Positions 21,634-53,934 of a stretch of 64,000 nt of DNA are shown here, one piece after another (within the stretch, counting starts at the first letter, position 1; each line of letters opens with the position of its first letter). The notes beneath the pieces were generated by a model. That model was not told the origin of the DNA and did not search any database. It saw only the letters and a list, made by a program, of their open reading frames with translations. Made by a program: the position numbers and the translations under genes. Source of the stretch: a virus (Duplodnaviria; Caudoviricetes); IMG/VR virus record IMGVR_UViG_3300025121_000014, positions 1 through 64,000 of that record; one strand, given 5' to 3'.

Positions 21634-23301
21634 ATGAAAACTTTTAAAGAATTTATAAATGAAAATATTAAAGATTTACTTCAAGGTAGATCAGAAGATG
21701 ATATAGAAAAAAGATTAGAAGGATTAGATGATATAGAAAAAATTAAAATGGTACTTCAATATGATTTACCAGAAAAATATTTACCCCAAAAATATTACGA
21801 TATAGTAAACGAATACATTACAAGTATTAAAAATAGTGTTAAAGAATTAAAAAATATATTAAATAAACCTGTAATTAACGTGGAAAGTTATATTGAAATA
21901 TTTAATACAATAATATTAGCATATACACATTTTTCTAATGTTGAAGATCAATATGATGATTTAGAAGTAGATGAAATTATTCATGAAATTTCTGAATTAG
22001 ACGAAGATAGAATAAAAATTATAGTTTGGTATAATTATACAGATGATTATGAAACGTTTTATACAACATATGATAAACTTAATTTTTTTGATTTAGATAT
22101 GCTCGATAAAAAATTAAAAAAAGCGATTAAAACTTTTAATTCTATTAATGAAAATATTAAAGATTTACTTCAACCAAAATCTGATGATGAAATAATTAAA
22201 GCATTAGAAGGTTTATCTGATTCAGATAAGATAAAACAAATAATTATAAATCAATTAGATTTTAATTTATTACCTCGAAATAAAGATGGAATATGTTTAT
22301 ATGATGATTGGTTAATAATATCTAAATCGAATATAACAGAATTACCAGATAATTTATTAGTAAAAGGTTGGGTATTATGTGATCATAATAAATTATCTAA
22401 ATTACCAAAAGGTTTAACTGTTTTAGGATCACTTTATTGTCAACATAATTTATTAACAGAAATACCAAATGACATTTATGTTAAAGGAAAGTTATTATGT
22501 TACGATAATGCAAAAGTATTAGAATTGCCCGATGGAGCTGAAGTTGGAGAATTCCAAAACATTGAAGTTATAGAATCAATGTATGAAAGTGTAAAAGATT
22601 TGCTTCAACCAAAATCTTATGATGAAATTAAAAAGAATTTAAATTATTTAAATGCATTTGACAAAACAAATATGATTATAAAATATCAATTAGATAGTAA
22701 ATTAATGCCGTCAAAAGATGATATGATTAAATCATTAGATGTTGTAAACACATTAGATAAAATAAGATATATTTATAGATTTGATTTACCAAAAAAATAT
22801 TTACCTTCGGATAAAGATATAAAAGAAGCATTAAAAAATGTTTCTGTTCCTAGTATAATATCATGGGTAAGAACATTTAAATTATCTGAAAAATTATTAC
22901 CAATTTTAAATAAAATAAAAGAACATATTAAAAAATTAGATAATAATGATCAAATAATGTTCATATTTGAAAATGGACTACCCTATGATTTATTACCTAG
23001 AACTAAAGATGGTATATGTAAATTTTATAAATATTATAATACTGATTTAAATATTCAAAATATTGGTTTAACTAAATTACCAGATAATTTAACAGTATAT
23101 AATAATTTAGATTGTAGTAATAATAATTTAAAAGAATTACCAAAAGGCTTAAAGGTTTATAAACATTTATTTTGTGATAGTAATTTATTAACTGAATTAC
23201 CTGATGACTTATATGTGATGGGTGATGTATATTGTGGTAATAATAAAGCAAAACTAAAATTACCAAAAGGCGCTGTTGTTATAGGAGAAATTATTAATTA
23301 A
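21634..23301 (+). CDS. CTS-bearing modular polyprotein with three DLL-KS modules and LRR-like solenoids
   Basis: MKTFKEFINE; ENIKDLLQGRS, ENIKDLLQPKS, ESVKDLLQPKS; two LPDNL.V.G.L.C..N.L repeat blocks. Confidence 0.7.
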   Translation: MKTFKEFINENIKDLLQGRSEDDIEKRLEGLDDIEKIKMVLQYDLPEKYLPQKYYDIVNEYITSIKNSVKELKNILNKPVINVESYIEIFNTIILAYTHFSNVEDQYDDLEVDEIIHEISELDEDRIKIIVWYNYTDDYETFYTTYDKLNFFDLDMLDKKLKKAIKTFNSINENIKDLLQPKSDDEIIKALEGLSDSDKIKQIIINQLDFNLLPRNKDGICLYDDWLIISKSNITELPDNLLVKGWVLCDHNKLSKLPKGLTVLGSLYCQHNLLTEIPNDIYVKGKLLCYDNAKVLELPDGAEVGEFQNIEVIESMYESVKDLLQPKSYDEIKKNLNYLNAFDKTNMIIKYQLDSKLMPSKDDMIKSLDVVNTLDKIRYIYRFDLPKKYLPSDKDIKEALKNVSVPSIISWVRTFKLSEKLLPILNKIKEHIKKLDNNDQIMFIFENGLPYDLLPRTKDGICKFYKYYNTDLNIQNIGLTKLPDNLTVYNNLDCSNNNLKELPKGLKVYKHLFCDSNLLTELPDDLYVMGDVYCGNNKAKLKLPKGAVVIGEIIN

Positions 23302-23314
23302 TATATAACTATAT

Positions 23315-23650
23315 ATGAAAACATTTAAACAATTTAATGAAAGTATAAGAGATTTACTTAAAGGGAAATCAAAAGATGATATTGAAAATGTATTAAGTAA
23401 TATGGATATTCCTAGTAGATTAATTAATATTAGTAAGTATGATTTAGATACAGAATATATGCCAACAAAAAAAGAATTAGAAGAATATATTAAAACATTA
23501 ACAACACCCGGGAAAATGTCATACATTATAAATTACAAATTAGATAAAGAATTTTTACCAAGTAATGAAGAAATTAAAGAATACATTAAAAAATTTAGTA
23601 ATGACCAACAAATAGAATATATTATTGAAAATGAACTACACATTAAATAA
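23315..23650 (+). CDS. CTS/DLL-KS module protein with helical repeats
   Basis: MKTFKQFNESIRDLLKGKSKDDI; Y.L..E(Y/F)(M/L)P..EE repeats. Confidence 0.65.
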   Translation: MKTFKQFNESIRDLLKGKSKDDIENVLSNMDIPSRLINISKYDLDTEYMPTKKELEEYIKTLTTPGKMSYIINYKLDKEFLPSNEEIKEYIKKFSNDQQIEYIIENELHIK

Positions 23651-23657
23651 ATATTAA

Positions 23658-24978
23658 TGTGTTTCCAGAACTTAAACAAGTTCCTTCTCTTTAAACGCTT
23701 CATTGCTTATGCCATCAAATGATGGTCTTATTTTGGCTCTGCGTTTGTAATCGGAAGTCCCTCCCGATATATTTTTTCTATATCCTTCATTAAAGATATT
23801 GATTGCTGCATTTACATCTCTATCATGAACTTCACTACATTCAGGGCAAGTCCAAGTTCTATCTTTCAAATGTAATGGTTGATTGATATAACCACATTTA
23901 TGACAGGTTTTACTTGAAGGAAAAAATCTATCTATATGTATTATTTCCTTTTCATTCCACTCTGCTTTGTATGTAAGAATATCAATGAATTTACCCCAAC
24001 TAACATCACCAATGGCTTTTGCTAATTTATGGTTTTTCATCATTCCTTTTACATTCAAATCTTCAAGATAGATTTTATCGTATTGATTTACAAGGTTTAA
24101 TGTAGTTTTATGAATTAAATCCATTCTTGAATTAGTTATTTTTTCATGAATTTTTGCTACTTTAATCCTTTGTTTTTCACACCTTGATGAACCTTTTGTT
24201 TTTCTTGATAGATATTTTTGATTTTTGGTTAAAAGTTTTTCATAGTGTTTAAGAAATCTATGGTTCTTGATTTTCGTTCCATTAGATAACACTAAAAAAT
24301 CTTTTATTCCTAAATCTATTCCTACTGATTGGTTTGTTTTAACTAAAGGTGTATATTCCTTTTCAGTTAGAATTGAAACAAAGTATTTACTAGTAGGGGT
24401 TTTACTTAATGTTGCTTTTTTAATTATTCCTTTAATTTCTCGTTCCATTATCATTTTAATTCCTTCTTGAAATTTTGGTATGAAAAGTAATACATCTTCA
24501 TTTCTAACAAATTGAGGACAAGTAAATGAGTTTTTTGATTTTTTTGACTTAAAACGAGGAAATTGAGTTCTTTTATTAAAGAAATTTTGGTATGCCTGAT
24601 CTAAACATTTCAATGAATATTGAAGTGATTGACTATTAACTTCTTTTAACCAATCTGTTTCATTTTCTTGCTTTAATTGTGTTAAACATTTTGATTGTTT
24701 GTTATAAGTTATTGATTTTTTACTATTTAAATATTCTTCTTTTCTTTGATTAAGAAAATAATTATATGACCACCTAACTGAACCAAAATGTTTATTTAAA
24801 AGAACTTCTTGTTCCTTTGTTGGTTTCAGTCTAAATTTATACGTATATTTAATTATTTTCACTTAAACAAAATTGTTTTTTTTGTATAAGTATATATTAA
24901 ACAAAAAAAGTCACATTTTTCCATTTTTGAAAGTCAAATTCATCCATTAAACTGAAGATTTAACGGTTTTCTTTGACA
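23658..24978 (-). mobile_element. IS200/IS605-family (IS1341-like) tnpB-only element, right end apparently truncated
   Basis: Left-end hairpin GTCAAAGAAAACCGTTAAATCTTCAGTTTAATGGATGAATTTGAC near-identical to that at 46475; no tnpA. Confidence 0.75.
23672..24862 (-). CDS. tnpB: TnpB RNA-guided nuclease
   Basis: YKFRLKPT HTH, GIDLG, LEDL, CHKCG...CPEC, DRDVNAAIN. Confidence 0.92.
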   Translation of the reverse strand: MKIIKYTYKFRLKPTKEQEVLLNKHFGSVRWSYNYFLNQRKEEYLNSKKSITYNKQSKCLTQLKQENETDWLKEVNSQSLQYSLKCLDQAYQNFFNKRTQFPRFKSKKSKNSFTCPQFVRNEDVLLFIPKFQEGIKMIMEREIKGIIKKATLSKTPTSKYFVSILTEKEYTPLVKTNQSVGIDLGIKDFLVLSNGTKIKNHRFLKHYEKLLTKNQKYLSRKTKGSSRCEKQRIKVAKIHEKITNSRMDLIHKTTLNLVNQYDKIYLEDLNVKGMMKNHKLAKAIGDVSWGKFIDILTYKAEWNEKEIIHIDRFFPSSKTCHKCGYINQPLHLKDRTWTCPECSEVHDRDVNAAINIFNEGYRKNISGGTSDYKRRAKIRPSFDGISNEAFKEKELV

Positions 24979-25001
24979 GATTAAATAAATTTCAATTATT
25001 T

Positions 25002-28000
25002 TTACATTTTTAGACTTGATATTCCATATTCATCCTTTTCAACTGTAATTAAGTAATCGTAATTAATAGTTTTATCGTGTTCAATTATGATAAGTTTATC
25101 TACTTGGTTTTTAATACTATCTAATAGGTCTATAAATTTTTCAACACTCGAATCAACGAGTTTTGACATTATCTCGTCTAACATTAACATAGAACATTTT
25201 GATTTTGAATTAACAGATCTTAACGCTATTTTTAAACTAACAGCAGCAAAAGTTCTTTCCATACCACTTGATTGTTCTATTCCTTGACATACATCCAACC
25301 GATTATCATTCGATAATTTTAAATTTAATTCTTCATCAAAATAAATTGTATAATCTACATCAGTTAAAATATTATTTAATTCTTGATTAATTATTGATAT
25401 TGACTTCTTTAATAAATAAGTTGGAATTCCATCTCTATGAACACACTTTAAATATACAGTTAAAATTTCATCTCGTTTTTGTTGTTCTTTAAATTTAATT
25501 AAAATTTTATCTAATTCTTCTAACTTACTATTAATCAACATCATATTAGCATCTATATTAGATTTTTCATTAGATTTTTCATTAATTTGAATATCTAATT
25601 CATCCAGTAATATATTTAAATCATTAATTTTAATTAAAAGATCTTTATTGTGTTGAATTTTATGTAATTCATTATTATAAGTTTCAATTTCTTTTTCAAG
25701 ATTAAGTATTTCTGATTTACATTTTATAATATCTAAATTTATTTTATCTTCTAAAGCAATTGCTTCTTTTTTCTTTTGGTATTTAACTTCTTCTTCTTCT
25801 AAAATAATAATATCTATTTTTATTGTTTCCAAACTACTTTTCTTAATAGAAATATGATTAATTAATTTTTCTTTTTCTTTTTCTATATTATTTATTTTAT
25901 CAATAGTATATTCTTTTTGTTCATATGATGATTTTAATTTTAATCTTAAATTATTTGATAAATTATCATCCTTAATTAAAGTAATGTTTTTATTAATTTC
26001 TTCATTATTATTTTTATAATTAGAAATTTTATTTAAAACATCATAGTAAGATTCTTTTAAATCATTATCAAAATTATAATCTTTTTCAGATATTTTTATT
26101 AATATACTTTCTTTATTTTTTATTGATTCATTCAAATTATTATATTCTATTTTTAATAATTTAACTTCTTCCATTATGTTTAACATCCTGGATTTATTTT
26201 TTTCTATTTTTTCACCAATAATAATAATATCTTTTTCTTCTAATGGTCTATGGCAAGTTATGCAAATTTTACTATGTTCTAAATCATTATTCTCTACTTT
26301 TAACAATTTGCCATCATTCATTAAATTATCAATTTTTGTTTGAACATTATTTTGCTGTAATGTTATTTTATGAACATTTTCTTTGATATCAGATTTTAAT
26401 TTAATTATTTTATCATTAAAATCTGTTTTTAATTTAGATATTTCATTATCATTTGTTTCTATTTCTTTTTCAAGTGTTCTAATATGTTGATCGATGATAT
26501 TTTTAATATCCATATTGATAGTTTTTATATCAGATGATAGTTTACCTATCTCAATATCAAAGTCCTTGGATTGTATGTTTAAATCGTTTATTTCGTCTTT
26601 TAAATTATTTAATTTATCTCTTTTTTCAATTAATTCTACATTATTATAATTTTTAATTTCTTCTTTTAATTGTTCAATTTTAGTTAATTGTTCTTCTCTT
26701 TTTTCAATAGTTAATTTAACTACTTCTATTTTATCTTTAACATTAATTAAATCGAAATTTTCTAATGATTTATCTATTTGATGCATCTGACTTAAATATC
26801 CATCTTTTTCTTTAATAAGAGGTTTCTTTTTTTCTTCAACAACTTTTATTTCCATAATTTTATTAACAAACTTAGATTCTAATAACATCATATTTTCGTT
26901 ATGAATTTTTTTATTTTCTTCATATTGTGTTAAATCGAAATCTATTCTGCTACTATTTAATTCTTTTTTATATATTTTGAATTCTTCTAATTTTTTTTCA
27001 AAAATATCATAACCAGCATATCTAATAACAGAATCAATAAATACTGATCTATCCATAGAAATTAAATCATTTAAATTATCTGCTGTAGTTAATACTAATC
27101 TTATAAAATCAGTAAAATCTCCAATAGTATTTTCTATAATTTTTTGAGTATCTTTCTTTTGTTCATCAGTTAAATTAGCATCATCTATTATATCACGACC
27201 TATGTAATAATTAACAGAAGTAGAACAAGAAGTTATTTCTGTTTTATTTCTATTCCATTTTCTTTCTGTTCTTCTTAAAATAGTATATTCTTGTTCATTA
27301 ATAGAAATTATTGCACCACCATTACAATAATCTAAATCTCTTTTGTTATTTATATATCGATTGTCTGAATTTTTTTCTCTTTTTAAAGTAGTTAATGTTT
27401 TCCCATAAATAATATAACAAATTGCATCAAGAATAGTTGTTTTTCCTTGCTGATTAATTCCAGTTAATTGATAAATTCCATTATTACTTTCCCAATCTAT
27501 AATAGTTTCATCACCATACGATTTAAAATTTTCAAACCAAAATTTATTTATACTCCAATTAACACCGATAGTGTTTTTAGATTGATCCATTCTATCATTA
27601 ATAATAGTATCAATATCTAATATTTCATTGATAAAATCTTTTTTATACCCATTCAATTTAAGAAATTCAATAAATATTTCTTTTTGAACATCTATATTTG
27701 TTAAATCGATTGATTCATTAATCATTTCAACCCCAGACATATCAGTATAAATAGCTTCTCTTTTGACTTTAATTTTAGGTAAATTATATTTATCTTTAAA
27801 ATATTGTCTTATTTTAATTTCATTTTCATTATTAACATTAGCGCTGATATCTTGCCATTTAACTTTAACTTCTGATTGTTCAGTTAAATGTTTAGATGTT
27901 AAATTAAGATTATTATAATCAGTATTAGTAGGAATTGTGAAATTTATATAATTATGTTCATTATGGATATGATGAAATATAGATTTAAATTCATCTTTGG

Positions 28001-28691
28001 ATTCAATTTGCCACTCTATAAACCCGTGATTTTCAACACTTTCCCCAAAATTTTGCTGAATTAAACTTGAACTATAAGCCATAGATTTATTTTCCCTAAA
28101 ATATTGCAATTTGTGAATATCATTTAAAAAGCAGTAATAGTTTTTGTCAAAAAATGCTACATTTTTATATTTTTTATCCGTAAATTTCATTCCTAAATCT
28201 GTAACAGAATTATTTATTGGGTCGTGAAAAAGTCCGATATAAATTTTATCATTATTTTTTGTATGTGGAATATCAATCCAAGGAATTATATGTTTTTCTA
28301 TATGTGAATAATTTACCCATATTATATCACCATCTTCATAAAAACCAGATTTTTCTAAATATAATATATTAGGATTATTAAGTAATTTGACTATTGGTCT
28401 GATTGAATTGACACGATTTTTGTTCTTGGACATAATGTCGTGATTACCCGGAATCACTATAGTCTTAGCGATATTAGCAAGTTCAGTTAAGAATTCTCCT
28501 GCTAATTCTTCCGCTTCATTAGATATAGCAACAAAATTATCAAACAAATCTCCACCGATTACAATCCGATCGGGCTTCAACTCATTTAATTTGTCATAAA
28601 ATTTTTGAAATTGGATTCTATATTCTTCATGTCTTTGTAAATTGAAAATATGTATATCTCCGCAGTGGGCTATTATAATAGGATTAGACAT
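25002..28691 (-). CDS. Fused SbcD(Mre11/gp47)-SbcC(Rad50/gp46) nuclease-ATPase
   Basis: N-terminal DIH, GGDLFD, GNHD and DIH phosphoesterase motifs; Walker A GINQQGKT, CITC hook, SGME, LMLDE, IIEH. Confidence 0.9.
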   Translation of the reverse strand: MSNPIIIAHCGDIHIFNLQRHEEYRIQFQKFYDKLNELKPDRIVIGGDLFDNFVAISNEAEELAGEFLTELANIAKTIVIPGNHDIMSKNKNRVNSIRPIVKLLNNPNILYLEKSGFYEDGDIIWVNYSHIEKHIIPWIDIPHTKNNDKIYIGLFHDPINNSVTDLGMKFTDKKYKNVAFFDKNYYCFLNDIHKLQYFRENKSMAYSSSLIQQNFGESVENHGFIEWQIESKDEFKSIFHHIHNEHNYINFTIPTNTDYNNLNLTSKHLTEQSEVKVKWQDISANVNNENEIKIRQYFKDKYNLPKIKVKREAIYTDMSGVEMINESIDLTNIDVQKEIFIEFLKLNGYKKDFINEILDIDTIINDRMDQSKNTIGVNWSINKFWFENFKSYGDETIIDWESNNGIYQLTGINQQGKTTILDAICYIIYGKTLTTLKREKNSDNRYINNKRDLDYCNGGAIISINEQEYTILRRTERKWNRNKTEITSCSTSVNYYIGRDIIDDANLTDEQKKDTQKIIENTIGDFTDFIRLVLTTADNLNDLISMDRSVFIDSVIRYAGYDIFEKKLEEFKIYKKELNSSRIDFDLTQYEENKKIHNENMMLLESKFVNKIMEIKVVEEKKKPLIKEKDGYLSQMHQIDKSLENFDLINVKDKIEVVKLTIEKREEQLTKIEQLKEEIKNYNNVELIEKRDKLNNLKDEINDLNIQSKDFDIEIGKLSSDIKTINMDIKNIIDQHIRTLEKEIETNDNEISKLKTDFNDKIIKLKSDIKENVHKITLQQNNVQTKIDNLMNDGKLLKVENNDLEHSKICITCHRPLEEKDIIIIGEKIEKNKSRMLNIMEEVKLLKIEYNNLNESIKNKESILIKISEKDYNFDNDLKESYYDVLNKISNYKNNNEEINKNITLIKDDNLSNNLRLKLKSSYEQKEYTIDKINNIEKEKEKLINHISIKKSSLETIKIDIIILEEEEVKYQKKKEAIALEDKINLDIIKCKSEILNLEKEIETYNNELHKIQHNKDLLIKINDLNILLDELDIQINEKSNEKSNIDANMMLINSKLEELDKILIKFKEQQKRDEILTVYLKCVHRDGIPTYLLKKSISIINQELNNILTDVDYTIYFDEELNLKLSNDNRLDVCQGIEQSSGMERTFAAVSLKIALRSVNSKSKCSMLMLDEIMSKLVDSSVEKFIDLLDSIKNQVDKLIIIEHDKTINYDYLITVEKDEYGISSLKM

Positions 28692-28710
28692 TAATTGTTT
28701 TGATTATTTT

Positions 28711-29238: not shown

Positions 29239-29393
29239 TTTTCCTTATTATTTTTTTCAAAGTGTTCATTCAACACTTTTTCTATAAATTGTGATTTATT
29301 TTTTACATCACCATCTTTAATCATTTTTTCAATTATTTCGTTTATCTGTTCATTTATAGTAAATGACACTTTAATCTTATTTTCCTTCTTCAT
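29235..29393 (-). CDS. Ribbon-helix-helix DNA-binding protein (52 aa, not in ORF track)
   Basis: MKKENKIKVSFTINEQINEIIE...NKSQFIEKVLNEHF. Confidence 0.65.
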   Translation of the reverse strand: MKKENKIKVSFTINEQINEIIEKMIKDGDVKNKSQFIEKVLNEHFEKNNKEK

Positions 29394-29538
29394 ATAAATT
29401 ATTTCATTTTAATTATTATATAAAAAAATAGTAATTATGTTTATTTTAATTATTTAGAATGATTATGAATTAAAAAATAGTAGTACAAAACACTACTTTT
29501 GACTTTCAATATTTTATATATAAAAATAAAGGAAAGTT

Positions 29539-44885: not shown

Positions 44886-45352
44886 AAAATATAAAAGGTT
44901 TTAATCAATTTTTAAATGAAGATGGTTCCACAACTGCTGTTGTAGGATCAGGAACTGCCGTAAGTGGTCCATCTTTTTCAAGTGTATCTGTTGCAGGAGT
45001 TAGCATAGACGGTGGGCATTCAACACAAGGGAGTAGTGGTGTATCTACATTAGGCAATGTATCTGGTATGGGAGATGTTGTTTCTGCTCAACCATCTGAT
45101 ACACCAGGTGATGTTGCTGGTAGTACTAAAGGATCAGGTGATATTGGACAAACTTTAAAACCATTTACTAAATCATTTCCTAATACAAGAAAGAAGAAAA
45201 AAGAAAAAAAGAAAAAAACTAATTCTGAAAAAGGAGCACAAATAGATAAATTTTACACTTCTAAATATTCAGAAAAATATATAAAATCTGGAAATGTAAT
45301 TCAAGATTGGAAAACATTTAATAAAGAAAAAAATGGTAATAAAAAAGTTTAA
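44882..45352 (+). CDS. CTS-bearing Gly/Ser-rich, probably disordered head protein
   Basis: MKNIKGFNQFLNEDG; G/S/T-rich; basic stretch; C-terminal IQDWKTF. Confidence 0.6.
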   Translation: MKNIKGFNQFLNEDGSTTAVVGSGTAVSGPSFSSVSVAGVSIDGGHSTQGSSGVSTLGNVSGMGDVVSAQPSDTPGDVAGSTKGSGDIGQTLKPFTKSFPNTRKKKKEKKKKTNSEKGAQIDKFYTSKYSEKYIKSGNVIQDWKTFNKEKNGNKKV

Positions 45353-46562
45353 TATTTTTATAAATGAAAATATAACTAGTTTACTTAAAGGAAAATCTAA
45401 TGATGAAATGATTAAAGCATTAGAAGGTTTATCAAATAATAAGAAAATAGAATATATAATTGCATATCAATTAGATTATGATTTATTACCAAGAGATAAA
45501 AATGGTAGATGTATTTATCATAATAATGAAGATGAATATGGTGCTTATAGTTGTAATCTAACTGGTTATGGGATAAAAAAATTACCTGATAATTTAACAG
45601 TTCATGGTAATCTGATTTGTAATAATAACCCAGAATTAACTGAATTGCCTAAAGGATTAATCGTTAATGGTGATATGTATTTTTTTGATTATCCTAAAGA
45701 ATTAAAATTACCACATGATATACAATTAAGTGGAAAATATTATCATAGTATTAAAGGTAAAAAATTAATAATAGAAAATATAAAAGATTTACTTAAAGGT
45801 AAATCAGATGATGAAATTGAAAAAAAATTAAAAGTAAGTTCTGACGAAAATATAGCTCGTGGTGTGTTTAGTTATAATTTACCACTTAAATATTTACCTA
45901 AAAATTATGATAAATTAGTAAAAGATATTATTAAAGAAATAAAAGAACTTGTTAAAGAATATGGTGGTAATATTACTGTATATGATTTGGGTGTAGAAAG
46001 TATTGATTATGAAGGTGAAACACATTATTATGCAATATCTGTATTAACTACTGATTATGTATGGGTAGAGGAATATCTATTAACTGATTTTACTAAAAAT
46101 AGAACATATGAAGCACCATATGAAGAATTAAATTATTATCAATTAAGTGAAATAAAAGAAACAATAGAATGGGCAATTGGATCAGGAAATTTAGAACATA
46201 AATTATATGAAAGTGTTAAAGATTTATTAAAAGCAAAATCATATGAAGATGTTGAAAAACAATTAATTGGTTTATCGGATTTAGAAAGAATTATAAAAAT
46301 AGAAGAACACGATTTACCAAAAGAATATTTACCAAATAATTATAACGATATTAAAAAAATACTTATAAATGGTATTAAAAGCAAATTAAAACAGTTTAAT
46401 AATGTTTTAAATTTTTTAAATGATTTTGATTTACAAGACGAATTATATTTATACCCATATATTTTATACATCTTGTCAAAGAAAACCACCAAATCTTCAG
46501 TTTGGTGGATGAATTTGACTTCCAAAAACGGAAAAAACAGACTTTTAACTTTTAATATATAA
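45333..46562 (+). CDS. CTS-bearing modular polyprotein (three DLL-KS modules), 3' end interrupted by IS
   Basis: ENITSLLKGKS, ENIKDLLKGKS, ESVKDLLKAKS; LRR-like block; last ~29 codons are read through the IS left end. Confidence 0.7.
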   Translation: MVIKKFNIFINENITSLLKGKSNDEMIKALEGLSNNKKIEYIIAYQLDYDLLPRDKNGRCIYHNNEDEYGAYSCNLTGYGIKKLPDNLTVHGNLICNNNPELTELPKGLIVNGDMYFFDYPKELKLPHDIQLSGKYYHSIKGKKLIIENIKDLLKGKSDDEIEKKLKVSSDENIARGVFSYNLPLKYLPKNYDKLVKDIIKEIKELVKEYGGNITVYDLGVESIDYEGETHYYAISVLTTDYVWVEEYLLTDFTKNRTYEAPYEELNYYQLSEIKETIEWAIGSGNLEHKLYESVKDLLKAKSYEDVEKQLIGLSDLERIIKIEEHDLPKEYLPNNYNDIKKILINGIKSKLKQFNNVLNFLNDFDLQDELYLYPYILYILSKKTTKSSVWWMNLTSKNGKNRLLTFNI

Positions 46563-47763
46563 TTTAAAGGAAAAATAAAATATCTTTAAAAATGTTAAAA
46601 TCATATAAATACAGAATATACCCAAATCAAGCCCAAAAAGAACTTCTTTCAAAGATTTTTGGTCAAGTAAGATTTGTATATAATCTTGGTTTAGAAACTA
46701 AAATAACAGCATATACAGGAAACAAAAAAAATATTGATGTGTTTGATTTAAATAAGCAAATTAAAGAATTAAAAGATAATGAATGTGAATGGTTAAAAGA
46801 AAGCCCATCACAAGCACTTCAAATGAGTATGTCTAATCTAGATAATGCTTATACAAATTTCTTTAGAGGAAAAGGTTTTCCAAAATTTAAGAATAAATAT
46901 TCAAAACAATCATTTCAACTACCACAAGGTGTTTGGTTATCAGATAATAATAAACAAATTTTTATACCGAAATTAAAATTCACCGATATAGATTTACATC
47001 GTGAATTTAAAGGCGATATTAAAACTGTAACAGTAAGTAAATCAATAACTAATAAATATTATATATCAATTTTAACAGATAATTTACAACCTAAACCAGA
47101 AAAAAAACCAATTAAGTTAAATACAACAATTGGAATTGATTTAGGGATTAAAGATTTTGCTATCACTTCAGATGGAAAGAAATTCAAGAACCACGATTTC
47201 TTTAAATCTGCTTTAAGAGAACTAAGGGTTGAACAGCGATCTCTTAGTAGGAAAAAGAAAGGATCAAACCATTACAATCAACAAAAAATGAAAGTCGCTT
47301 TAATACACGAACACATTAAAAATCAAAGAGAAGATTATTTACATAAAATCAGTAAATATTTAGTTGATAATTATGACACTATATGTATTGAAAATCTTGG
47401 TGTATCTAATATGATTAAAAATCATAAATTATCTAAAGCAATATCAGATATGGGATGGAATAAATTTAAATCTATGCTTGATTATAAATGTGAATGGTAT
47501 GGTAAAAATTTAAGTGTGATTGGTAGATTTGATCCGTCAAGTAAATCATGTAGTTCTTGTGGGACAATAAATAAAGAATTAACATTAAAAGATAGAGAAT
47601 GGGTTTGTAAAGAGTGTGGTGTTAAACACGATAGGGATATTAATGCTGCAATAAATATAAGAAATTTTGGGTTGAGGAACCAACCTAGCGTCACACAAAG
47701 TGAATGGTTGCATTGTGCTTGTGGCGTAGAAACACACAAATCTTCAGTTTGTGTGTAGTTCAT
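46474..47763 (+). mobile_element. IS200/IS605-family tnpB-only element with both ends
   Basis: Left end GTCAAAGAAAACCACCAAATCTTCAGTTTGGTGGATGAATTTGAC; right end GAAACACACAAATCTTCAGTTTGTGTGTAGTTCAT. Confidence 0.8.
46592..47758 (+). CDS. tnpB: TnpB RNA-guided nuclease
   Basis: YKYRIYPN, GIDLG, IENL, CSSCG...CKECG, DRDINAAIN. Confidence 0.92.
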   Translation: MLKSYKYRIYPNQAQKELLSKIFGQVRFVYNLGLETKITAYTGNKKNIDVFDLNKQIKELKDNECEWLKESPSQALQMSMSNLDNAYTNFFRGKGFPKFKNKYSKQSFQLPQGVWLSDNNKQIFIPKLKFTDIDLHREFKGDIKTVTVSKSITNKYYISILTDNLQPKPEKKPIKLNTTIGIDLGIKDFAITSDGKKFKNHDFFKSALRELRVEQRSLSRKKKGSNHYNQQKMKVALIHEHIKNQREDYLHKISKYLVDNYDTICIENLGVSNMIKNHKLSKAISDMGWNKFKSMLDYKCEWYGKNLSVIGRFDPSSKSCSSCGTINKELTLKDREWVCKECGVKHDRDINAAINIRNFGLRNQPSVTQSEWLHCACGVETHKSSVCV

Positions 47764-48308
47764 CTACTATAAGTAAAATTGTTAAAATAAAACAATATGG
47801 TTTAGATAAAAAATATATGCCATCAAAAGATGAAATTAAAAAAGAATTTGATAATTGGGGTAATAGTATACATAGTACAGATTTAAAAATTTATCATATA
47901 ATTATATTAGAATTACCATTTGATTTATTACCTATAAGAAAAGAACCGAGTAAATTAAAAACAATTTATAAAGGGAATAAAAATAAAATTATTTGTAGTA
48001 CAGAGTTAGATGTAAGTTATAAAAATATAACTAAATTGCCAGATAATTTAGTTATTTATGGTGATTTGAATTGTAGTAGTAATCAATTAACTGAATTACC
48101 AAAAGGATTAGAAGTATTTGGAAATTTAAAAGCAAGTTATAATAATTTAACCGAATTTCCAGATGATACAATAGTACACGGATATTTAGATATAACTGGT
48201 ACTAAAATAACTAAAATACCTAAAACAGCAGTAATTTGGGAAGCTATATATTCTGATTATAAGTTAAATTATTTTAACCCAAAATCTGATGAAGAACATA
48301 TATTATAG
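47751..48308 (+). pseudogene. Headless remainder of a module/LRR-like gene downstream of the IS
   Basis: Begins mid-module (KIVKIKQYGLDKKYMPSKDEI); ATG lies inside the IS right end; LPDNL...LTELPKGL repeats. Confidence 0.55.
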
Positions 48309-48311
48309 AAT

Positions 48312-49016
48312 ATGAAAACATTTAAACAATTTATTAATGAAAATGTAAAAGATTTACTAACAGGAAAATCTGATGATGTTATTAGTAAAGAATTAGATAA
48401 ATTAAAAATACAAGATAAATTAAGATATATTCAAAAATATGATTTATCTGATAAATTTATGCCATCTGATAAGGAAATTAAAAATTATTTAAATAAATTC
48501 AGCACATATCAAATTATTGATAAAATACATTATTTAAATTTACCTAAAAAATTTATGCCAACTGATGAAGAAATTAAAAAATTAAAACCTTCGAAATTAT
48601 TAGAATTTATATCAAGAGGATGTATTTCTAAAAAATTTGAACCTACAAAAAAAGATTTAAATACATTTATGGAAAATATACCTAATGATATTAAAAATAT
48701 ATTGCAAATATATATTGATGCTGACGATAATTATGAATCAACAGGATTTTTTTTAAATTTTATTGATCAATTTACTACTTGTAAAAATTATTATAAATAT
48801 ATAATAGATATTGTTAATACTCACATAGAAGATTATTCTGACCATGAACCTAATCCATATTCACATATTAAATCTGATCAAGAAAAACTAAATTTTATGG
48901 ATTCTGATTTACTAATAGAATTTGTTGGTAATGGTATTTTTTATATTGATAGTAACACATATAATCATTTTATAGAAGATTTGAAAAAAACTAGTTGGAA
49001 TGATATAGTGGAATAG
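48312..49016 (+). CDS. CTS/DLL-KS module protein
   Basis: MKTFKQFINENVKDLLTGKSDD. Confidence 0.65.
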   Translation: MKTFKQFINENVKDLLTGKSDDVISKELDKLKIQDKLRYIQKYDLSDKFMPSDKEIKNYLNKFSTYQIIDKIHYLNLPKKFMPTDEEIKKLKPSKLLEFISRGCISKKFEPTKKDLNTFMENIPNDIKNILQIYIDADDNYESTGFFLNFIDQFTTCKNYYKYIIDIVNTHIEDYSDHEPNPYSHIKSDQEKLNFMDSDLLIEFVGNGIFYIDSNTYNHFIEDLKKTSWNDIVE

Positions 49017-49053
49017 ATTTAACAAGTTAACGAAAATATTTATTAATTTTTTT

Positions 49054-49091
49054 AAAAATCTATTTTTAATATATATTAAAAATAGATTTTT
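49054..49091. repeat. Perfect 38-bp palindrome centred on the late-promoter motif
   Basis: AAAAATCTATTTTTAATATATATTAAAAATAGATTTTT. Confidence 0.85.
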
Positions 49092-49095
49092 TGCA

Positions 49096-49539
49096 ATGAT
49101 TTATAAATTTAGTGAATTTGAAAGATTAAATGAGGAAACAAAACCAAGTAAAATATATAAAAATGTTATGTTTGATGATTACGAAATTAGAATTGGTCGT
49201 AATAGTCAGGTCAATGATATATTAACATTTGAATATGCTAATGATAATGATTTATGGTTTCATGTTAGTGGATACCCTGGTTCACATGTTGTAATAAAAG
49301 TTAAGGAAAATCAAGAAACACCAAACAAAGTTATTTTAGAAGCTTCTAGATTAGCTATTTATAATTCTAAGGCAAAAGGAAAAGGATTAGTTAAAGTAGT
49401 CTATACAGAAAGAAAAAACGTTACTAAGACCGATAAACATAATCCAGGGCAAGTTAGTGTTGATTATAGTAAATCAAAATTTATAAAAATAGAAGTTTTA
49501 AAAAAATATAATATAAATGAAACATATAAAAATATTTAA
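49096..49539 (+). CDS. NFACT-R (DUF814) RNA-binding domain protein with CTS
   Basis: IGRNSQVNDILT, DLWFHV...PGSHVV, A...S, V.YT..KNV.K, PGQV. Confidence 0.85.
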   Translation: MIYKFSEFERLNEETKPSKIYKNVMFDDYEIRIGRNSQVNDILTFEYANDNDLWFHVSGYPGSHVVIKVKENQETPNKVILEASRLAIYNSKAKGKGLVKVVYTERKNVTKTDKHNPGQVSVDYSKSKFIKIEVLKKYNINETYKNI

Positions 49540-50050
49540 AGAATTTTTTGATAAAGAAAAATTAGATAAAATACCAAATCAATATTTAAATACAATTAAT
49601 GAAAATGTAAAAAATGTTCTTCTACCTAAATCAGATGATGAAATTAAAAAAGAATTATCTAAATTAGATGTATACGATAGAATAGAAGTTATTACTAAAA
49701 ATAATTTATCACCAGAATATTTACCATCAAAAGAAGAAATTGCAAAAGCACATGAAGAAAAATATAATTCATATAGCGATAAATGGTCAAAAGGATATTT
49801 TAATACTGAAACACTTAAAGTTAAAACACCATATTGGAATATTTATATTCCAAAATGTAAAAGTTGTGATGAAGTTACCGAATTAAAAAATTGTTTTATA
49901 GACAGACAAATGATAGGAAATGTTTATCAAACATTATGTAATTGTAGTAAATGTAATAAATATATATTACTTGACGAAGACAAATATGATGATTTAATGA
50001 GATATATAGAAAATAATAAAGAAGTAAAAGGAAATAATGATAAACTATAA
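49517..50050 (+). CDS. CTS/module protein with Zn-ribbon cargo
   Basis: ENVKNVLLPKSDDEI; CKSC...CNCSKC. Confidence 0.6.
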   Translation: MKHIKIFKEFFDKEKLDKIPNQYLNTINENVKNVLLPKSDDEIKKELSKLDVYDRIEVITKNNLSPEYLPSKEEIAKAHEEKYNSYSDKWSKGYFNTETLKVKTPYWNIYIPKCKSCDEVTELKNCFIDRQMIGNVYQTLCNCSKCNKYILLDEDKYDDLMRYIENNKEVKGNNDKL

Positions 50051-50084
50051 AAGGTTTAAATAAATTAAAATATTAGTATAGTTA

Positions 50085-51140
50085 ATGAATACATTTAAAC
50101 AATTTAATGAAAATATAAGAGATGTTCTTTTACCTAAAAGTAAAGAAGAAATTGGTAAAGCATTACAAAGATTTACAAATAATGATGATTTAATAAGATA
50201 TATAATAAAATATAAATTGCCATATGAATTTTTACCTAGAAATGAAGAAGGTAGATGTGTTATTAATAAAAATCTTTATTATGCTTCTTCAAATATTGAA
50301 ATATTACCGGATAATTTTACTGTTAATGGTATGTTAGATATATCATATTCTTCAATAAAAGAATTACCAGATGGTTTAATAGTTAGAGATGATTTATGGT
50401 GTTTAGATACAGATATAACTAAATTAAAAGATGATACAATAATTGGAGGTAAAACATTCTTTAAAACAACTTATAAAGTATATGAAAGTGTAAAAAATGT
50501 TCTTCTACCTAAATCAATTGATAAAATTAAAGATGCAATGAAAGGTAAAAATATTTATTCTAAAATATATACAATTAAAAATACACCAGATTTAGAAAAA
50601 ATTTTTAGATATCCATCTAAAAAAAAATTATATGATGTAATAAATAAACCATTTGAAAATTATGAACAAGTTTATAAAGATATAATAGATGATAAAAAAA
50701 TCAAATTTAGTAAAGTAAGAATGAATGATGTAGAATATTTTCAGTTATATCAATTAATAGTTGATTATATTAAAGTAATATGTAACACCGAAAAAAAAAT
50801 ATTTGAATTTGCACCTAATACACATGTTATTAGAGTTTTTGGTGTAATTTTAAATCATTTGGAATCTGAATATATATTTAAACCTGTTTATAAGGAAAAC
50901 GGATTTGATATTTTTAAATTAGCAAAAAAAATTTTTAATAGAGATTTATTATTGCAAAACGGTCATATAGAAGTAAATGATGCCTATAAAAAATATACAA
51001 AAAGTCAAATTAGAATAGATATTAATTCAATTAACTATAAATTTAGTGATATAACTTCACCATATTGGTCAAATTTACATGGTTGGGAGATAGAAAGAAA
51101 ATATGTTAAGAAACACGAAAGAAAATTCGGTAAAACATAA
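50085..51140 (+). CDS. CTS-bearing two-module polyprotein with LRR-like block
   Basis: ENIRDVLLPKS and ESVKNVLLPKS. Confidence 0.65.
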   Translation: MNTFKQFNENIRDVLLPKSKEEIGKALQRFTNNDDLIRYIIKYKLPYEFLPRNEEGRCVINKNLYYASSNIEILPDNFTVNGMLDISYSSIKELPDGLIVRDDLWCLDTDITKLKDDTIIGGKTFFKTTYKVYESVKNVLLPKSIDKIKDAMKGKNIYSKIYTIKNTPDLEKIFRYPSKKKLYDVINKPFENYEQVYKDIIDDKKIKFSKVRMNDVEYFQLYQLIVDYIKVICNTEKKIFEFAPNTHVIRVFGVILNHLESEYIFKPVYKENGFDIFKLAKKIFNRDLLLQNGHIEVNDAYKKYTKSQIRIDINSINYKFSDITSPYWSNLHGWEIERKYVKKHERKFGKT

Positions 51141-51172
51141 TTAATATATAAATAAAAAATAATTGTGTTTTA

Positions 51173-51565
51173 ATGAAAAATATCAAAAACTTTGACAAAT
51201 TTATAAGTGAAAGTATTACTAATTTATTAACGTCTAAACCAAACGATGAAATCATTAAAAAACCTATAGGATATATGACATATAGAATATTAAAATTCGT
51301 TAGTGAACATCCAGAAGGTATTAGACGTAAAGATTTAATAAAAATGATATTTGATATAAAATACGAAGACACTTTAATAACTTATGATACAAGTAAACAT
51401 TCTAGGTTTTATAGTAGTTTCTTTTCTAATACTAATTTATTAAATAAAACAGGTAAAGGAAATAATGCTAAATGGTATATAAACGCAAATGGTTTAGATA
51501 AATTAAAATATTATGAAAAAAAATTTAAAGATTATGATATTGAAAAAATTAAAAAAATAATTTAA
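51173..51565 (+). CDS. CTS/module protein with winged-helix-like cargo
   Basis: ESITNLLTSKP; RILKFVSEHPEGIRRKDLIKMIF. Confidence 0.55.
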   Translation: MKNIKNFDKFISESITNLLTSKPNDEIIKKPIGYMTYRILKFVSEHPEGIRRKDLIKMIFDIKYEDTLITYDTSKHSRFYSSFFSNTNLLNKTGKGNNAKWYINANGLDKLKYYEKKFKDYDIEKIKKII

Positions 51566-51570
51566 ATATT

Positions 51571-53079
51571 ATGTTACTTAAAAAATATAATGATTTTATG
51601 ATTGACAAATTACTTTTAGAATCATTAAATGAATTTAAATTTATTTTATCAGGTCGTTTAAAAAATATATTAAAAAATATAAATAGTGAAATATCTGATG
51701 CATTACTAGCATTACATAATGATGATGATTATAAAAGTAAAAAAACGTTTATAGATATTAATGAAAGAGATGATGAAACTTTAACATTAATTCAAGCAAA
51801 TAAAGCTACTGAAATATTAAAAATAGATAATCAAGAATATTTAGATAATAATCCTTATTCAATACAGCGATATAAAAAATTAAAATCTGATCATGATGTA
51901 TATAATAAACATAGAATATCCGTAAGAGTAGGTCGTTTAATTAATTATTTATTTCCTAATAGATTTCCTAGTGCTTCACCAACAGATATTACCAAAAAAT
52001 CAAAAGATATTGAAAATTTTGTTAGAATGTATAAATCTATTGTTTTTCAAAACGAAAGATTTAAATTATTAGATTTGGTAAATGGTGATAATATATCATA
52101 CTGGTATGATTGTAATAATTATGATAGTAGTGATTCTGGATCATTAGGTAGTTCTTGTATGGCAAGTGTATATGAAGAATATTTTGAAATATATGTTAAT
52201 AATCCAAATACTATACAATTATTAATATTATATTCTGATAATTCTAAATCATATATATCTGGAAGAGCCTTAGTTTGGACATTATATGAACCAGAAAATG
52301 GTAGAAAATATATGGATAGAATTTATACAAATGATAGTTCAGATGAACAAGTATTTATTGATTATGCTAAAGAAAATGGTTGGTTATTTAGATCATCACA
52401 AGGTTGGAATAATACTGATATTGTTGATTCATTAACAAATCAAACTATTAATACGAATTTAATGGTTCGTACAACTAAAGACGATTATAGTTATTATCCT
52501 TGGATGGATACTATGTGTTATTATAGTCCGGAACTTGGAATTTTATCTAATAAATCAAATAATTTACGACTATATCTGCAATCACAAGATGGTTCAAGTT
52601 CAACAAATAGTGATTATTATGAAAATGAAGATGATACTTATATATTTAGTAAATATGAAGGGGAAGATATACTTCGAAGAACCGCAGTATATTGTTATTA
52701 TGGAGATGATTGGGTTCATACATCAGTAGCCAAAAGAGTATTTAATGCGGGATTAGTAACAAATCCAGATGGGACTAATAGAATTTATTCTATTCCTGTA
52801 CATCCTGATGTTGTTAGATCATATATTCCTGATATTAATTATGATAAACATTTTCCAAAGAAAAAATGTATTTGGTCAATTTATTTAAATGCTTGGATTT
52901 TTAAAGATAGTAAAGTAAAAATATATCTAGATGTAAATAGAGAAAAATTTGGATATGACCACAAAAAACGTAAAGATATAAATTTTGGAAAAGTAGGTAG
53001 AGTTCATTATGTAATTGAATTACTTGAAAAAAATGAAAATGATCAATGGAAATTAAAAAAAGAAAATGAAAAAGTTTAA
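51571..53079 (+). CDS. CTS-bearing conserved phage protein (SCM...GRALVW...MDRIY family)
   Basis: LLESLNE; GSLGSSCM, GRALVW, YMDRIYT, YPWMDT. Confidence 0.6.
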   Translation: MLLKKYNDFMIDKLLLESLNEFKFILSGRLKNILKNINSEISDALLALHNDDDYKSKKTFIDINERDDETLTLIQANKATEILKIDNQEYLDNNPYSIQRYKKLKSDHDVYNKHRISVRVGRLINYLFPNRFPSASPTDITKKSKDIENFVRMYKSIVFQNERFKLLDLVNGDNISYWYDCNNYDSSDSGSLGSSCMASVYEEYFEIYVNNPNTIQLLILYSDNSKSYISGRALVWTLYEPENGRKYMDRIYTNDSSDEQVFIDYAKENGWLFRSSQGWNNTDIVDSLTNQTINTNLMVRTTKDDYSYYPWMDTMCYYSPELGILSNKSNNLRLYLQSQDGSSSTNSDYYENEDDTYIFSKYEGEDILRRTAVYCYYGDDWVHTSVAKRVFNAGLVTNPDGTNRIYSIPVHPDVVRSYIPDINYDKHFPKKKCIWSIYLNAWIFKDSKVKIYLDVNREKFGYDHKKRKDINFGKVGRVHYVIELLEKNENDQWKLKKENEKV

Positions 53080-53098
53080 ATAATTTATAAATGAAAAT
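53066..53098 (+). pseudogene. Decayed copy of the CTS-coding cassette
   Basis: ATGAAAAAGTTTAAATAATTTATAAATGAAAAT vs ATGAAAAAGTTTAAACAATTCATAAATGAAAAT at 53404 (CAA to TAA). Confidence 0.65.
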
Positions 53099-53140
53099 TT
53101 AAAATATAATAAGTATAACTTAAAAATAAATGAAAAATAA

Positions 53141-53395
53141 ATGAAAAGCATAAAAAAATTTAATAATTTCTTAAATGAAGGATTAAGCACAAGTAATAAA
53201 TTAGAAATAAAATATGTTAATATACATGGTGAAGAAATGATATTAAAATATGATGGAGTAGAAAGTACATTTTTTCATAGTGACATAACTGACATACCTA
53301 TTCCCTTACGATCTACTACTTTAGATGATTTTATTTTAAATAATGAAGAACAAAAAGTAATTGATTGTTTTTTATCTTTAGTGGATATAAATTAA
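53141..53395 (+). CDS. CTS-bearing small protein
   Basis: MKSIKKFNNFLNEG. Confidence 0.6.
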   Translation: MKSIKKFNNFLNEGLSTSNKLEIKYVNIHGEEMILKYDGVESTFFHSDITDIPIPLRSTTLDDFILNNEEQKVIDCFLSLVDIN

Positions 53396-53403
53396 AAAAG
53401 AAA

Positions 53404-53934
53404 ATGAAAAAGTTTAAACAATTCATAAATGAAAATATTAAAGATTTACTTAAAGGTAAAACAGAAGAAGAAATAAATAAAAATATAATTAATTTAAGTT
53501 CTTATGAAAAATTAAAATTAGCAAAAAAATATGAATTTAAATTATCAGATGTCGATGAAAAAGATGCTATTAAATCTGCGCTTATATATAATCCTGAAGA
53601 ATTAATTTTAGATTTAAAATATGATTATGATGATTTATCTAAAATAGTTTCTGATGAAGAAATTAAAAAAGGATTAAAAAGTATTACAAAACGTTTATTT
53701 AACATTATGAAAGGTAATAACAGAGAAAATGCATTTGAAGAATTAGAAAAAGTAGTATTTTATCTTTTTAAAAATGGATATCTATATGATAACACAGATA
53801 CACTTGGTAATTTATGGTTTAAACATAAAACATATGATAAATATAAAGGTGGTAGCACTACTTGGAATGGATATAATACATTAAGTGATGCGATAGATTA
53901 TGTTACTAGGATGCAAAAATTAAATAATTCATAA
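53404..53934 (+). CDS. CTS/DLL-KS module protein (true start 53404; ORF track 53365)
   Basis: MKKFKQFINENIKDLLKGKTEEEI. Confidence 0.65.
   Translation: MKKFKQFINENIKDLLKGKTEEEINKNIINLSSYEKLKLAKKYEFKLSDVDEKDAIKSALIYNPEELILDLKYDYDDLSKIVSDEEIKKGLKSITKRLFNIMKGNNRENAFEELEKVVFYLFKNGYLYDNTDTLGNLWFKHKTYDKYKGGSTTWNGYNTLSDAIDYVTRMQKLNNS

What the first reader, a model, noticed from the sequence alone, without database searches (positions are those of the whole stretch)
21634..53934. Shuffled 'E[NS]IKDLLxxKSxDEI' adaptor modules build apparent self-processing polyproteins
Seen: ten ORFs carry about 15 copies of the module. It directly follows the CTS Glu and recurs internally after xNE/xYE/xIE in 21634 (x3), 45333 (x3) and 50085 (x2). 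It is followed by helical Y.L...(Y/F)LP..EE repeats and variable cargo (LPDNL.V.G.L.C..N.L solenoids, ankyrin, Zn ribbon, wHTH). 47751 ends in a broken module (NPKSDEEHIL). Inference: the head protease cuts these polyproteins into separate effectors that share an N-terminal adaptor, and the module acts as a recombination cassette for mix-and-match injected effectors. I do not recognise a described family.
Basis: partly seen in the sequence, partly recalled or inferred. Interest (0 to 1): 0.75.

Follow-up and report, generated by a model that had tools for sequence, protein, structure and literature searches.

The report
Shuffled capsid-tag junction modules in megaphage
An uncultured, very AT-rich giant phage builds many one- to three-part proteins from swappable units, each opening with the same short junction motif that looks like the cut site of phage T4's head-loading tag. 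They are probably packaged proteins, some perhaps cut into pieces in the head, but no experiment shows this.

Summary
A profile built only from outside proteins finds 13 full modules and one degenerate copy in the window, then a clear score gap; a broken remnant ends ORF 47751. Three ORFs carry 3, 3 and 2 copies.

The module is the front of an undescribed family. It has 526 clusters in metagenomes, with up to about 12 modules per protein, and no Pfam or PHROG model. Its core reads hydrophobic-N-E-S/N-[VI]-[RK]-D-x-[LM]-x-[PG]-K-S-x-[DE]-[DE]-I. AlphaFold models it as a three-helix cap that continues into 32-residue helical hairpins or sits on LRR cargo. Relatives carry ankyrin cargo.

Recombination at the module is shown. 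Near-identical strains swap cargo with breakpoints inside it, and a stand-alone gene with its own T4-like leader is the ortholog of segment 2 of ORF 50085.

Internal cleavage is inferred only. Internal copies keep Glu (98%) and the hydrophobic P3 residue that T4 processing needs. They lose the aromatic residues that T4 targeting needs (5% against 70%). The same residues could instead be a helix cap. The only gp21 homolog in the window lacks its catalytic His and Ser. "Self-processing" is unsupported.

Other agents of this scan reported the tag and the 32-residue repeat elsewhere in this genome.

The parts
21634..23301 (+). Three-segment protein of 555 aa. It has a T4-like leader MKTFKEFINE. 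Segment 1 is module plus an alpha/beta 'X' domain, segment 2 is module plus LRR, and segment 3 is module plus helical hairpins plus LRR. Module cores lie at 21658-21729, 22147-22218 and 22582-22653.
23315..23650 (+). One-segment protein of 111 aa: leader, module (23336-23407) and about 2.5 helical hairpins. Its 3' end abuts or overlaps the right end of a TnpB element.
23622..24978 (-). TnpB (IS605-family OrfB) element. The gene is at 23672-24862. The ends were estimated by similarity to the second copy.
45333..46562 (+). Three-segment protein of 409 aa: LRR, then X domain, then an X-like domain. Module cores lie at 45363-45434, 45771-45842 and 46206-46277. The last 29 codons (46475-46562) are insertion-element sequence, so the gene is truncated.
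46475..47772 (+). TnpB element with the gene at 46592-47758. The left boundary is fixed at 46475, because a contig from another sample (L007) is collinear with the window only from that base onward.
47751..48308 (+). Leaderless fragment with a hairpin and an LRR. It begins inside or just after the insertion element and ends in the broken module NPKSDEEHIL* (48276-48308).
48312..49016 (+). One-segment protein of 234 aa: leader MKTFKQFINE, module (48336-48407), three to four 32-residue helical hairpins, then unique cargo.
49517..50050 (+). Protein of 177 aa. It has a leader-like start ending in Asp (MKHIKIFKEFFD), a 16-aa spacer, TINE plus the module (49598-49669), one hairpin and Cys-rich cargo.
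50085..51140 (+). Two-segment protein of 351 aa. Segment 1 (residues 10-134) is module plus LRR. The junction is KVYE|SVKNVLL. Segment 2 (residues 135-351) is module plus helical cargo. Module cores lie at 50106-50177 and 50481-50552. The identical ORF occurs on 9 independent contigs.
51173..51565 (+). One-segment protein of 130 aa: leader MKNIKNFDKFISE plus a divergent module (51206-51277). Its cargo is unassigned.
   Evidence: E 2.4e-4 with the outside-only HMM
53404..53934 (+). One-segment protein of 176 aa, counted from the ATG at 53404. It has the leader MKKFKQFINE and the module at 53428-53499.
4514..5014 (-). Tenth ORF, outside the stated range: leader MKTFKQFINE, a degenerate module (4919-4981), a hairpin, and a weak ankyrin-like C-terminus.
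17462..17917 (-). gp21 (Peptidase_S77) homolog lacking both catalytic residues. It reads GELGMG where active enzymes read GELxHP, and FRPRG where they read VSSRG. It is a pseudo-protease, not the processing enzyme.

Best explanation
These ORFs belong to a large, undescribed family of segmental proteins in AT-rich megaphages.

Each segment opens with a junction module. The module is hydrophobic-N-E, then a short helix (S/N-[VI]-[RK]-D-x-[LM]), then a P-K-S-x-[DE]-[DE]-I capping box that starts a 32-residue helical hairpin. Together they form a three-helix cap on variable cargo: more hairpins, LRR, ankyrin or other domains. The first segment is preceded by a T4-type capsid-targeting leader, M-K-x-[FY]-x-x-[FY]-(x)-N-E.

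Shown: segments are exchanged, fused and split by recombination whose breakpoints lie in the module. This produces proteins of 1 to about 12 segments.

Inferred: the leader loads the whole protein into the prohead core. A gp21-type prohead protease, encoded outside this window, cuts after the Glu of the leader. It probably also cuts after the Glu at each internal junction. One leader would then deliver several separate capped binder proteins, which stay in the head and leave with the DNA.
For: 1. Family and motif. The window holds 13 full copies plus one degenerate copy, recovered by an HMM built from outside proteins only. The profile search gives 526 clusters at E <= 1e-3 and 166 at E <= 1e-10, with up to 12 matched stretches per protein.

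2. Glu is nearly invariant. When copies are anchored only on the downstream PKSxEDI motif, Glu sits 8 residues upstream in 338 of 346 copies.

3. The leader matches the T4 CTS. In T4, residues 4 and 7 serve targeting and residues 8 and 10 serve processing (PMC9026906, read). MKTFKQFINE has F4, F7, I8 and E10.

4. Processing residues are kept and targeting residues are lost. N-terminal copies (n=109) have E 97%, hydrophobic P3 90%, and [FY]xx[FY] 70%. Internal copies (n=238) have E 98%, P3 hydrophobic or T/A/C 89%, and [FY]xx[FY] only 5%.

5. Leader-only proteins in the window also end in hydrophobic-N-E with no module after it. So that tripeptide belongs to the leader, not only to the module.

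6. Fission and fusion occur exactly at the junction. P0151 (MKKYKEFITE...) is 60% identical to residues 132-350 of ORF 50085, and it is a separate gene abutting an upstream gene. Cargo that is 50-82% identical sits in the first segment of one protein and the 2nd to 8th segment of another.

7. Recombination breakpoints lie in the module.

8. Each segment is modelled as its own folded unit. Residues 10-125 of ORF 50085 have pLDDT above 90, the leader (residues 1-8) is low, and the junction is low. The module plus hairpins of 48312 have pLDDT above 90.

9. The lineage is T4-like. The window holds a gp21-family homolog. A promoter-like motif, TTAATATATA, is shared with tail-fibre-like genes: 24 sites against 8.5 expected.
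Against: No proteomic or N-terminal data exist, so packaging and cleavage are both inferred.

The only gp21 homolog in the window lacks its catalytic His and Ser. I did not see an active protease, because the rest of the genome could not be searched.

Hydrophobic-N-E followed by a helix is also a classic helix N-cap with a hydrophobic staple. Its conservation could be purely structural.

Conservation runs 15 residues past the putative cut, far more than gp21 recognition needs.

Within this window the modules show no recent gene conversion. Same-codon use among identical residues is 0.78 against 0.72 expected, and the longest exact runs are 27-28 nt.

The junction model for ORF 50085 rests on a shallow alignment.
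Confidence: 0.5

Rival explanations
1. These are capsid-loaded proteins that are not polyproteins. Only the N-terminal leader is removed. Multi-segment proteins stay whole as beads-on-a-string binders. The internal hydrophobic-N-E is conserved because it is the N-cap and hydrophobic staple of the first helix of the cap domain.
For: AlphaFold starts a helix one or two residues after the Glu and packs the module tightly on the cargo. Conservation extends 15 residues beyond the Glu. The later hairpins use an analogous capping box, P-S-D-E-E-I.
Against: Leader-only proteins carry the same hydrophobic-N-E with no helix-cap module after it. The same cargo works as a stand-alone gene with its own leader and as an internal segment. 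Linkers before internal sites are short and Lys-rich, as exposed sites are.
Confidence: 0.28
2. These are not virion proteins at all. The conserved N-terminus is a translation-start or other sorting feature. The family consists of intracellular host-takeover binders (LRR and ankyrin) expressed from a shared promoter. The likeness to the T4 CTS is convergent.
For: No structural evidence ties them to the capsid. The complex prediction gave no verdict and is recorded under Tried and rejected. Ankyrin and LRR proteins are common non-virion host-interaction proteins. The genes lie outside an obvious head-gene block.
Against: The leader matches the T4 CTS at all four functionally mapped positions. 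It is shared by many unrelated proteins in a phage with a gp21-family homolog. Glu is 97-98% invariant.
Confidence: 0.17
3. The multi-module ORFs are artefacts: assembly errors, or insertion-element-driven fusions of separate genes, with no biological meaning.
For: Two TnpB elements break genes of this family in the window. One contig from another sample joins different DNA at the element boundary.
Against: ORF 50085 is identical on 9 independent contigs from several samples. Hundreds of outside clusters have 2 to about 12 in-frame modules. Junctions are in frame and conserved.
Confidence: 0.03

Closest known systems
T4 internal proteins IPI, IPII, IPIII and Alt with their capsid targeting sequence (CTS, MKTYQEFIAE), removed by prohead protease gp21
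   Same: Both have a leader of about 10 residues with aromatic residues at positions 4 and 7, a hydrophobic residue at 8 and Glu at 10. In both, the leader is shared by otherwise unrelated cargo proteins (PMC9026906 and PMC3012670, read).
   Different: Here the leader is followed by a conserved cap module of about 45 residues. The cut-site-plus-module recurs inside proteins up to about 12 times. The cargo is repeat-type binders (LRR, ankyrin). The family is far larger. Nothing has been tested at the bench.
Variable internal-protein locus of T-even phages, where CTS-coding sequence was proposed to aid gene exchange (Repoila et al. 1994, recalled from memory and not read here)
   Same: A conserved 5' coding segment flanks variable cargo genes and serves as a site of exchange.
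   Different: Here the breakpoints are mapped inside the post-leader module. Exchange also creates in-frame multi-segment fusions.
Processed ejection and inner-body proteins of giant phages phiKZ, 201phi2-1 and SPN3US (cleavage motif A/S/G-x-E; a diverged protease paralog)
   Same: A gp21-related protease cuts many head proteins after Glu, sometimes at several sites. Paralog families share N-termini, and a diverged protease paralog exists (PMC5694885).
   Different: In those phages the extra cuts lie in long propeptides that are discarded. Here each predicted product would be a complete capped domain. The motif is hydrophobic-N-E, and the leaders are short and T4-like.
Polyvalent proteins of phages and conjugative elements (Iyer, Burroughs, Anand, de Souza & Aravind 2017, PMC5512222)
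   Same: Both are multi-domain proteins of 2-15 units, thought to be packaged and delivered with the DNA and possibly cut into separate effectors.
   Different: Polyvalent proteins combine enzymatic effector domains with built-in peptidases. Here the units are non-enzymatic repeat binders separated by a dedicated, repeated junction module, and no peptidase domain is found.

Membership tests
T4-type CTS-led internal head proteins | N-terminal leader of about 10 residues with targeting residues at positions 4 and 7 and processing residues at position 8 (hydrophobic) and 10 (Glu) | tested here: met
   MKTFKQFINE and its variants fit. Glu lies at residue 9-13 in 99 of 117 N-terminal copies. The residue roles come from PMC9026906.
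T4-type CTS-led internal head proteins | A catalytically active gp21 (Peptidase_S77) prohead protease in the same genome | tested here: inconclusive
   The only homolog in the window (17462-17917) lacks His and Ser. The rest of the genome was not searchable.
T4-type CTS-led internal head proteins | Protein present in the virion with the leader removed | not testable with these tools
   This needs virion proteomics or N-terminomics.
Polyvalent proteins (Iyer et al. 2017) | Several distinct effector domains in one phage-encoded polypeptide | tested here: met
   Proteins have 2 to about 12 segments with differing cargo.
Polyvalent proteins (Iyer et al. 2017) | Enzymatic effector domains and built-in peptidase (for example MPTase) domains | tested here: not met
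   Pfam finds only ankyrin domains, one GNAT and weak LRR hits. No peptidase is found.
Leucine-rich repeat proteins (cargo only) | Beta-solenoid of LxxLxLxxN-type repeats, 20-25 residues each | tested here: met
   The AlphaFold solenoid has pLDDT above 90. Foldseek's best rows are IpaH and SspH1 LRR domains, but weak (E 0.2-1). Pfam LRR hits fall below the curated cut-off.
Ankyrin repeat proteins (module and hairpins) | 33-residue helix-turn-helix-loop repeat recognised by the Pfam Ank models | tested here: not met
   The 32-residue hairpins get no Ank hit and no fold match. Ank models hit only the separate cargo regions of relatives.
Any curated family covering the module (Pfam, PHROGs) | A significant profile match over the module | tested here: not met
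   Pfam gives nothing. PHROGs gives only phrog_22807 at E 0.006 over residues 12-35 of ORF 21634. GenBank phages give no tblastn hit.

The most novel reading that the evidence does not exclude
Megaphages have turned the T4 capsid-targeting system into a polyprotein delivery system. One leader loads a chain of up to about 12 capped binder domains into the prohead. The prohead protease then cuts at a dedicated, recombination-prone junction module, so the set of injected proteins can be re-dealt by simple in-frame exchange.
Probability: 0.4. Interest if true: 0.85.

Novelty: new variant of a known kind. Interest (0 to 1): 0.66.

Why it matters
If the reading is right, giant phages carry a much larger and more modular load of head-packaged proteins than T4. 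A built-in junction would serve both as the cut site and as the place where cargo is swapped. That would explain how such phages diversify their first-wave host-interaction proteins.

It would also define a compact tag, about 55 residues of leader plus cap, for loading and releasing several proteins from one gene. This is relevant to T4-style protein-delivery engineering.

The family is large (526 clusters) and unannotated, so a model for it would label many "hypothetical" or "ankyrin repeat" proteins in metagenomes. The hypothesis can be tested directly by virion N-terminomics.

Tried and rejected
- Complex prediction of the pseudo-protease (17462-17917) with residues 1-60 of ORF 48312 gave no verdict. 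It counts neither for nor against binding.
- Foldseek against PDB and a shape search of the ESM Atlas with the 48312 model gave no significant match. There was only a faint likeness to MgtE_N and to designed helical repeats. The protein-atlas look-up was uninformative.
- tblastn of ORF 48312 and of P0007 against GenBank phages found no module hit. The only hits were ankyrin matches to Wolbachia phage WO.
- IMG/VR searches failed. The protein scan found nothing. The alignment was too variable for pattern design. The one DNA-pattern hit was a chance match in a portal gene.
- I looked for recent gene conversion among the window's own modules. Same-codon use was 0.78 against 0.72 expected, so there is no signal inside this window. 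The signal appeared only between strains.
- The whole genome and the records behind the loci could not be searched. An active protease and the capsid gene were therefore not examined.
- A large MAFFT container alignment for a family-wide Pfam scan failed. I replaced it with a scan of ten proteins.
- Homolog search for ORF 21634 gave no close ortholog with a different segment order. The hits were mostly generic LRR proteins.
- I rejected the idea that the module is simply part of the CTS. Leader-only proteins exist, and the module recurs without a leader.
- I rejected "self-processing", because no peptidase domain is present.


Full report
**What is in the sequence**

The window has about 21% G+C and is phage DNA. 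It holds a gp21-family head-protease homolog, tail-fibre-like genes and TnpB elements. Identical genes occur on groundwater metagenome contigs.

Because that scan is partly circular, I built a second HMM from 339 modules of non-window proteins. It recovers the same 13 copies plus the degenerate copy in ORF 4514-5014 (14 hits, E <= 0.007). The next hit is at E 0.069.

ORFs 21634, 45333 and 50085 carry 3, 3 and 2 copies. ORF 47751 ends in the remnant NPKSDEEHIL*.

**What the module is**

Aligned copies share a block of about 50 residues with one invariant Glu.

AlphaFold models residues 10-125 of ORF 50085 at pLDDT above 90. Three short helices (11-15, 20-27, 33-42) cap an LRR solenoid. The leader (residues 1-8) is low-confidence, and so is the stretch from residue 128 across the junction.

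In ORF 48312 the module continues into three or four 32-residue helix-turn-helix hairpins, also at pLDDT above 90.

So the module is a short first helix (S/N-[VI]-[RK]-D-x-[LM]) followed by the first hairpin, which starts with the capping box P-K-S-x-[DE]-[DE]-I.

No Pfam or PHROG family covers it. No PDB or ESM Atlas fold matches it. Another agent of this scan independently reported the 32-residue repeat elsewhere in this genome (e1-5341919).

**How widespread it is**

A profile search of 1.84 billion cluster representatives gives 526 proteins at E <= 1e-3 and 166 at E <= 1e-10. Single proteins have up to 12 matched stretches, for example P0003 at 1591 aa.

The median spacing between modules is 145 residues. 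Cargo in the large relatives is mostly ankyrin repeats.

Contexts are phage-like and AT-rich. One is a 616-kb contig with Phage_30_3, a tRNA synthetase and Peptidase_S74. Another is a 122-kb contig with a run of such genes, 25 modules in 13 kb. GenBank phages show no hit.

**The link to capsid targeting**

The N-terminal copies follow M-K-x-[FY]-x-x-[FY]-(x)-N-E, with Glu at residue 9-13.

In T4 the CTS is MKTYQEFIAE. Residues 4 and 7 carry targeting, residues 8 and 10 carry processing, and Asp at position 10 blocks processing (PMC9026906). MKTFKQFINE matches at all four positions.

I anchored copies only on the downstream PKSxEDI motif, which does not force any upstream residue. Glu then lies 8 residues upstream in 338 of 346 copies.

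| Feature | N-terminal copies (n=109) | Internal copies (n=238) |
|---|---|---|
| Glu at P1 | 97% | 98% |
| Hydrophobic P3 | 90% | 68% (89% with T/A/C) |
| [FY]xx[FY] leader | 70% | 5% |

The residues T4 needs for cutting are therefore kept at internal junctions. Those it needs for targeting are lost.

At least seven leader-only proteins in the window also end in hydrophobic-N-E with no module after it. That ties the tripeptide to the leader.

**Fusion, fission and recombination**

P0151 is a 227-aa stand-alone gene starting MKKYKEFITE. It is 60% identical to residues 132-350 of ORF 50085, and the homology starts at the junction. It abuts a separate upstream gene.

Among the 150 best representatives, cargo that is 50-82% identical sits in the first segment of one protein and the 2nd to 8th segment of another.

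Inside the window, segment order differs: X-LRR-LRR in ORF 21634 and LRR-X-X in ORF 45333.

Two contigs of 22% G+C (L014, L015) share 4.3 kb at 96% identity but carry different neighbouring cassettes. Three mosaic patterns appear in their alignment:
- One gene pair is 60% identical over the leader and early module, then 96% identical downstream.
- A second pair is 94% identical up to the module, then falls to about 45%.
- A third pair shares a 96% patch limited to the leader plus module.

A 119-nt patch that is 96% identical also links the internal module of ORF 21634 to the N-terminal module of a stand-alone gene in L015.

The module is therefore a real site of exchange. Inside the window alone the copies look old. 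Maximum nucleotide identity is 83%, exact runs reach 27-28 nt, and there is no excess of shared codons.

**What weakens the cleavage reading**

The gp21 homolog in the window has Met in place of the catalytic His and Arg-Pro in place of Ser-Ser. So do its nearest relatives, while more distant homologs keep GELxHP and VSSRG. I could not search the rest of the genome for an active enzyme.

Asn-Glu before a helix, preceded by a hydrophobic residue, is also a standard helix cap. Conservation runs well past the putative cut. There are no protein-level data.

A complex prediction between the pseudo-protease and the leader plus module returned no verdict.

**Broken genes**

A TnpB element occupies about 46475-47772. 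The left boundary is exact, because contig L007 from another sample matches the window only from 46475 onward and has ribonucleotide-reductase DNA to the left.

ORF 45333 is therefore truncated: its last 29 codons are element sequence. ORF 47751 is a leaderless remnant. A second element at about 23622-24978 abuts ORF 23315.

**Verdict**

Recombination at the module and segment shuffling are shown. Capsid loading is a strong inference from likeness to the T4 CTS.

Internal cutting into separate proteins is plausible, at about 0.4-0.5, but unproven. "Self-processing" is unsupported.

The closest known systems are T4 CTS-led internal proteins, the processed ejection proteins of phiKZ and SPN3US (PMC5694885), and polyvalent proteins (PMC5512222). 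The repeated junction module and the multi-segment architecture are new relative to all three. My searches found no paper describing them.

Noticed in passing
window 15890-21556 (- strand): At least 14 consecutive small ORFs end in a basic amphipathic tail such as LKLRSKKILNIL, LRKLKLNKIIKN or WERSKKLEKIL. The gp21-like pseudo-protease is one of them. This may be a C-terminal address peptide. Another agent of this scan has reported on the array (e1-5341852).
   Followed up: partly
window 17462-17917 (-): The gp21 (Peptidase_S77) homolog has both catalytic residues replaced. Its closest relatives (P0154-P0156) share the FRPRG/FRPRS substitution, so this is a conserved pseudo-protease clade and not a one-off loss.
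   Followed up: yes
window, 24 sites, e.g. 21618, 23298, 46552, 49066, 51141, 55670, 59809, 62214: TTAATATATA occurs 24 times against 8.5 expected. It lies mostly 7-40 nt upstream of gene starts. These include leader genes, both TnpB genes and the tail-fibre-like genes, so it is a likely shared promoter element.
   Followed up: partly
window 46475 and L007:2534: A contig from another sample is 98.9% identical to the window from the TnpB left end onward, but has DnaB and ribonucleotide-reductase DNA to the left. This is either a TnpB-associated rearrangement between strains or an assembly join at a repeated element.
   Followed up: partly
window 7886, 32882, 43733(-), 44520, 44882, 49096, 53141: These proteins have the leader but no module: MIIKYNQYVNE, MIIKFNEYILE, MKNIKKYSEFLNE, MKNIKQFEQFIND, MKNIKGFNQFLNE, MIYKFSEFERLNE and MKSIKKFNNFLNE. 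ORF 49096 is an NFACT-R_1 (RNA-binding) domain protein. ORF 44520 has Asp where Glu is expected; in T4 that change blocks processing but not targeting.
   Followed up: partly
window 14614-15711 (-): A short Peptidase_M16 (insulinase-type) protein with an intact HxxEH motif (HIIEH) lies near the head-related array. It could be a second processing enzyme or a peptide-clearing enzyme.
   Followed up: no
window 25002-28691 (-), 11427-12470 (-): A single 1229-aa protein joins an Mre11-like phosphoesterase to a Rad50/SMC-like ATPase. There is also a phage-encoded glutamine synthetase-like gene.
   Followed up: no
L002 (122-kb ENA contig), 3000-13285: A relative with 33% G+C packs 25 modules into about 10 kb across six adjacent genes. 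All use the NESVRDKMTPKSEEDI variant with ankyrin cargo.
   Followed up: partly
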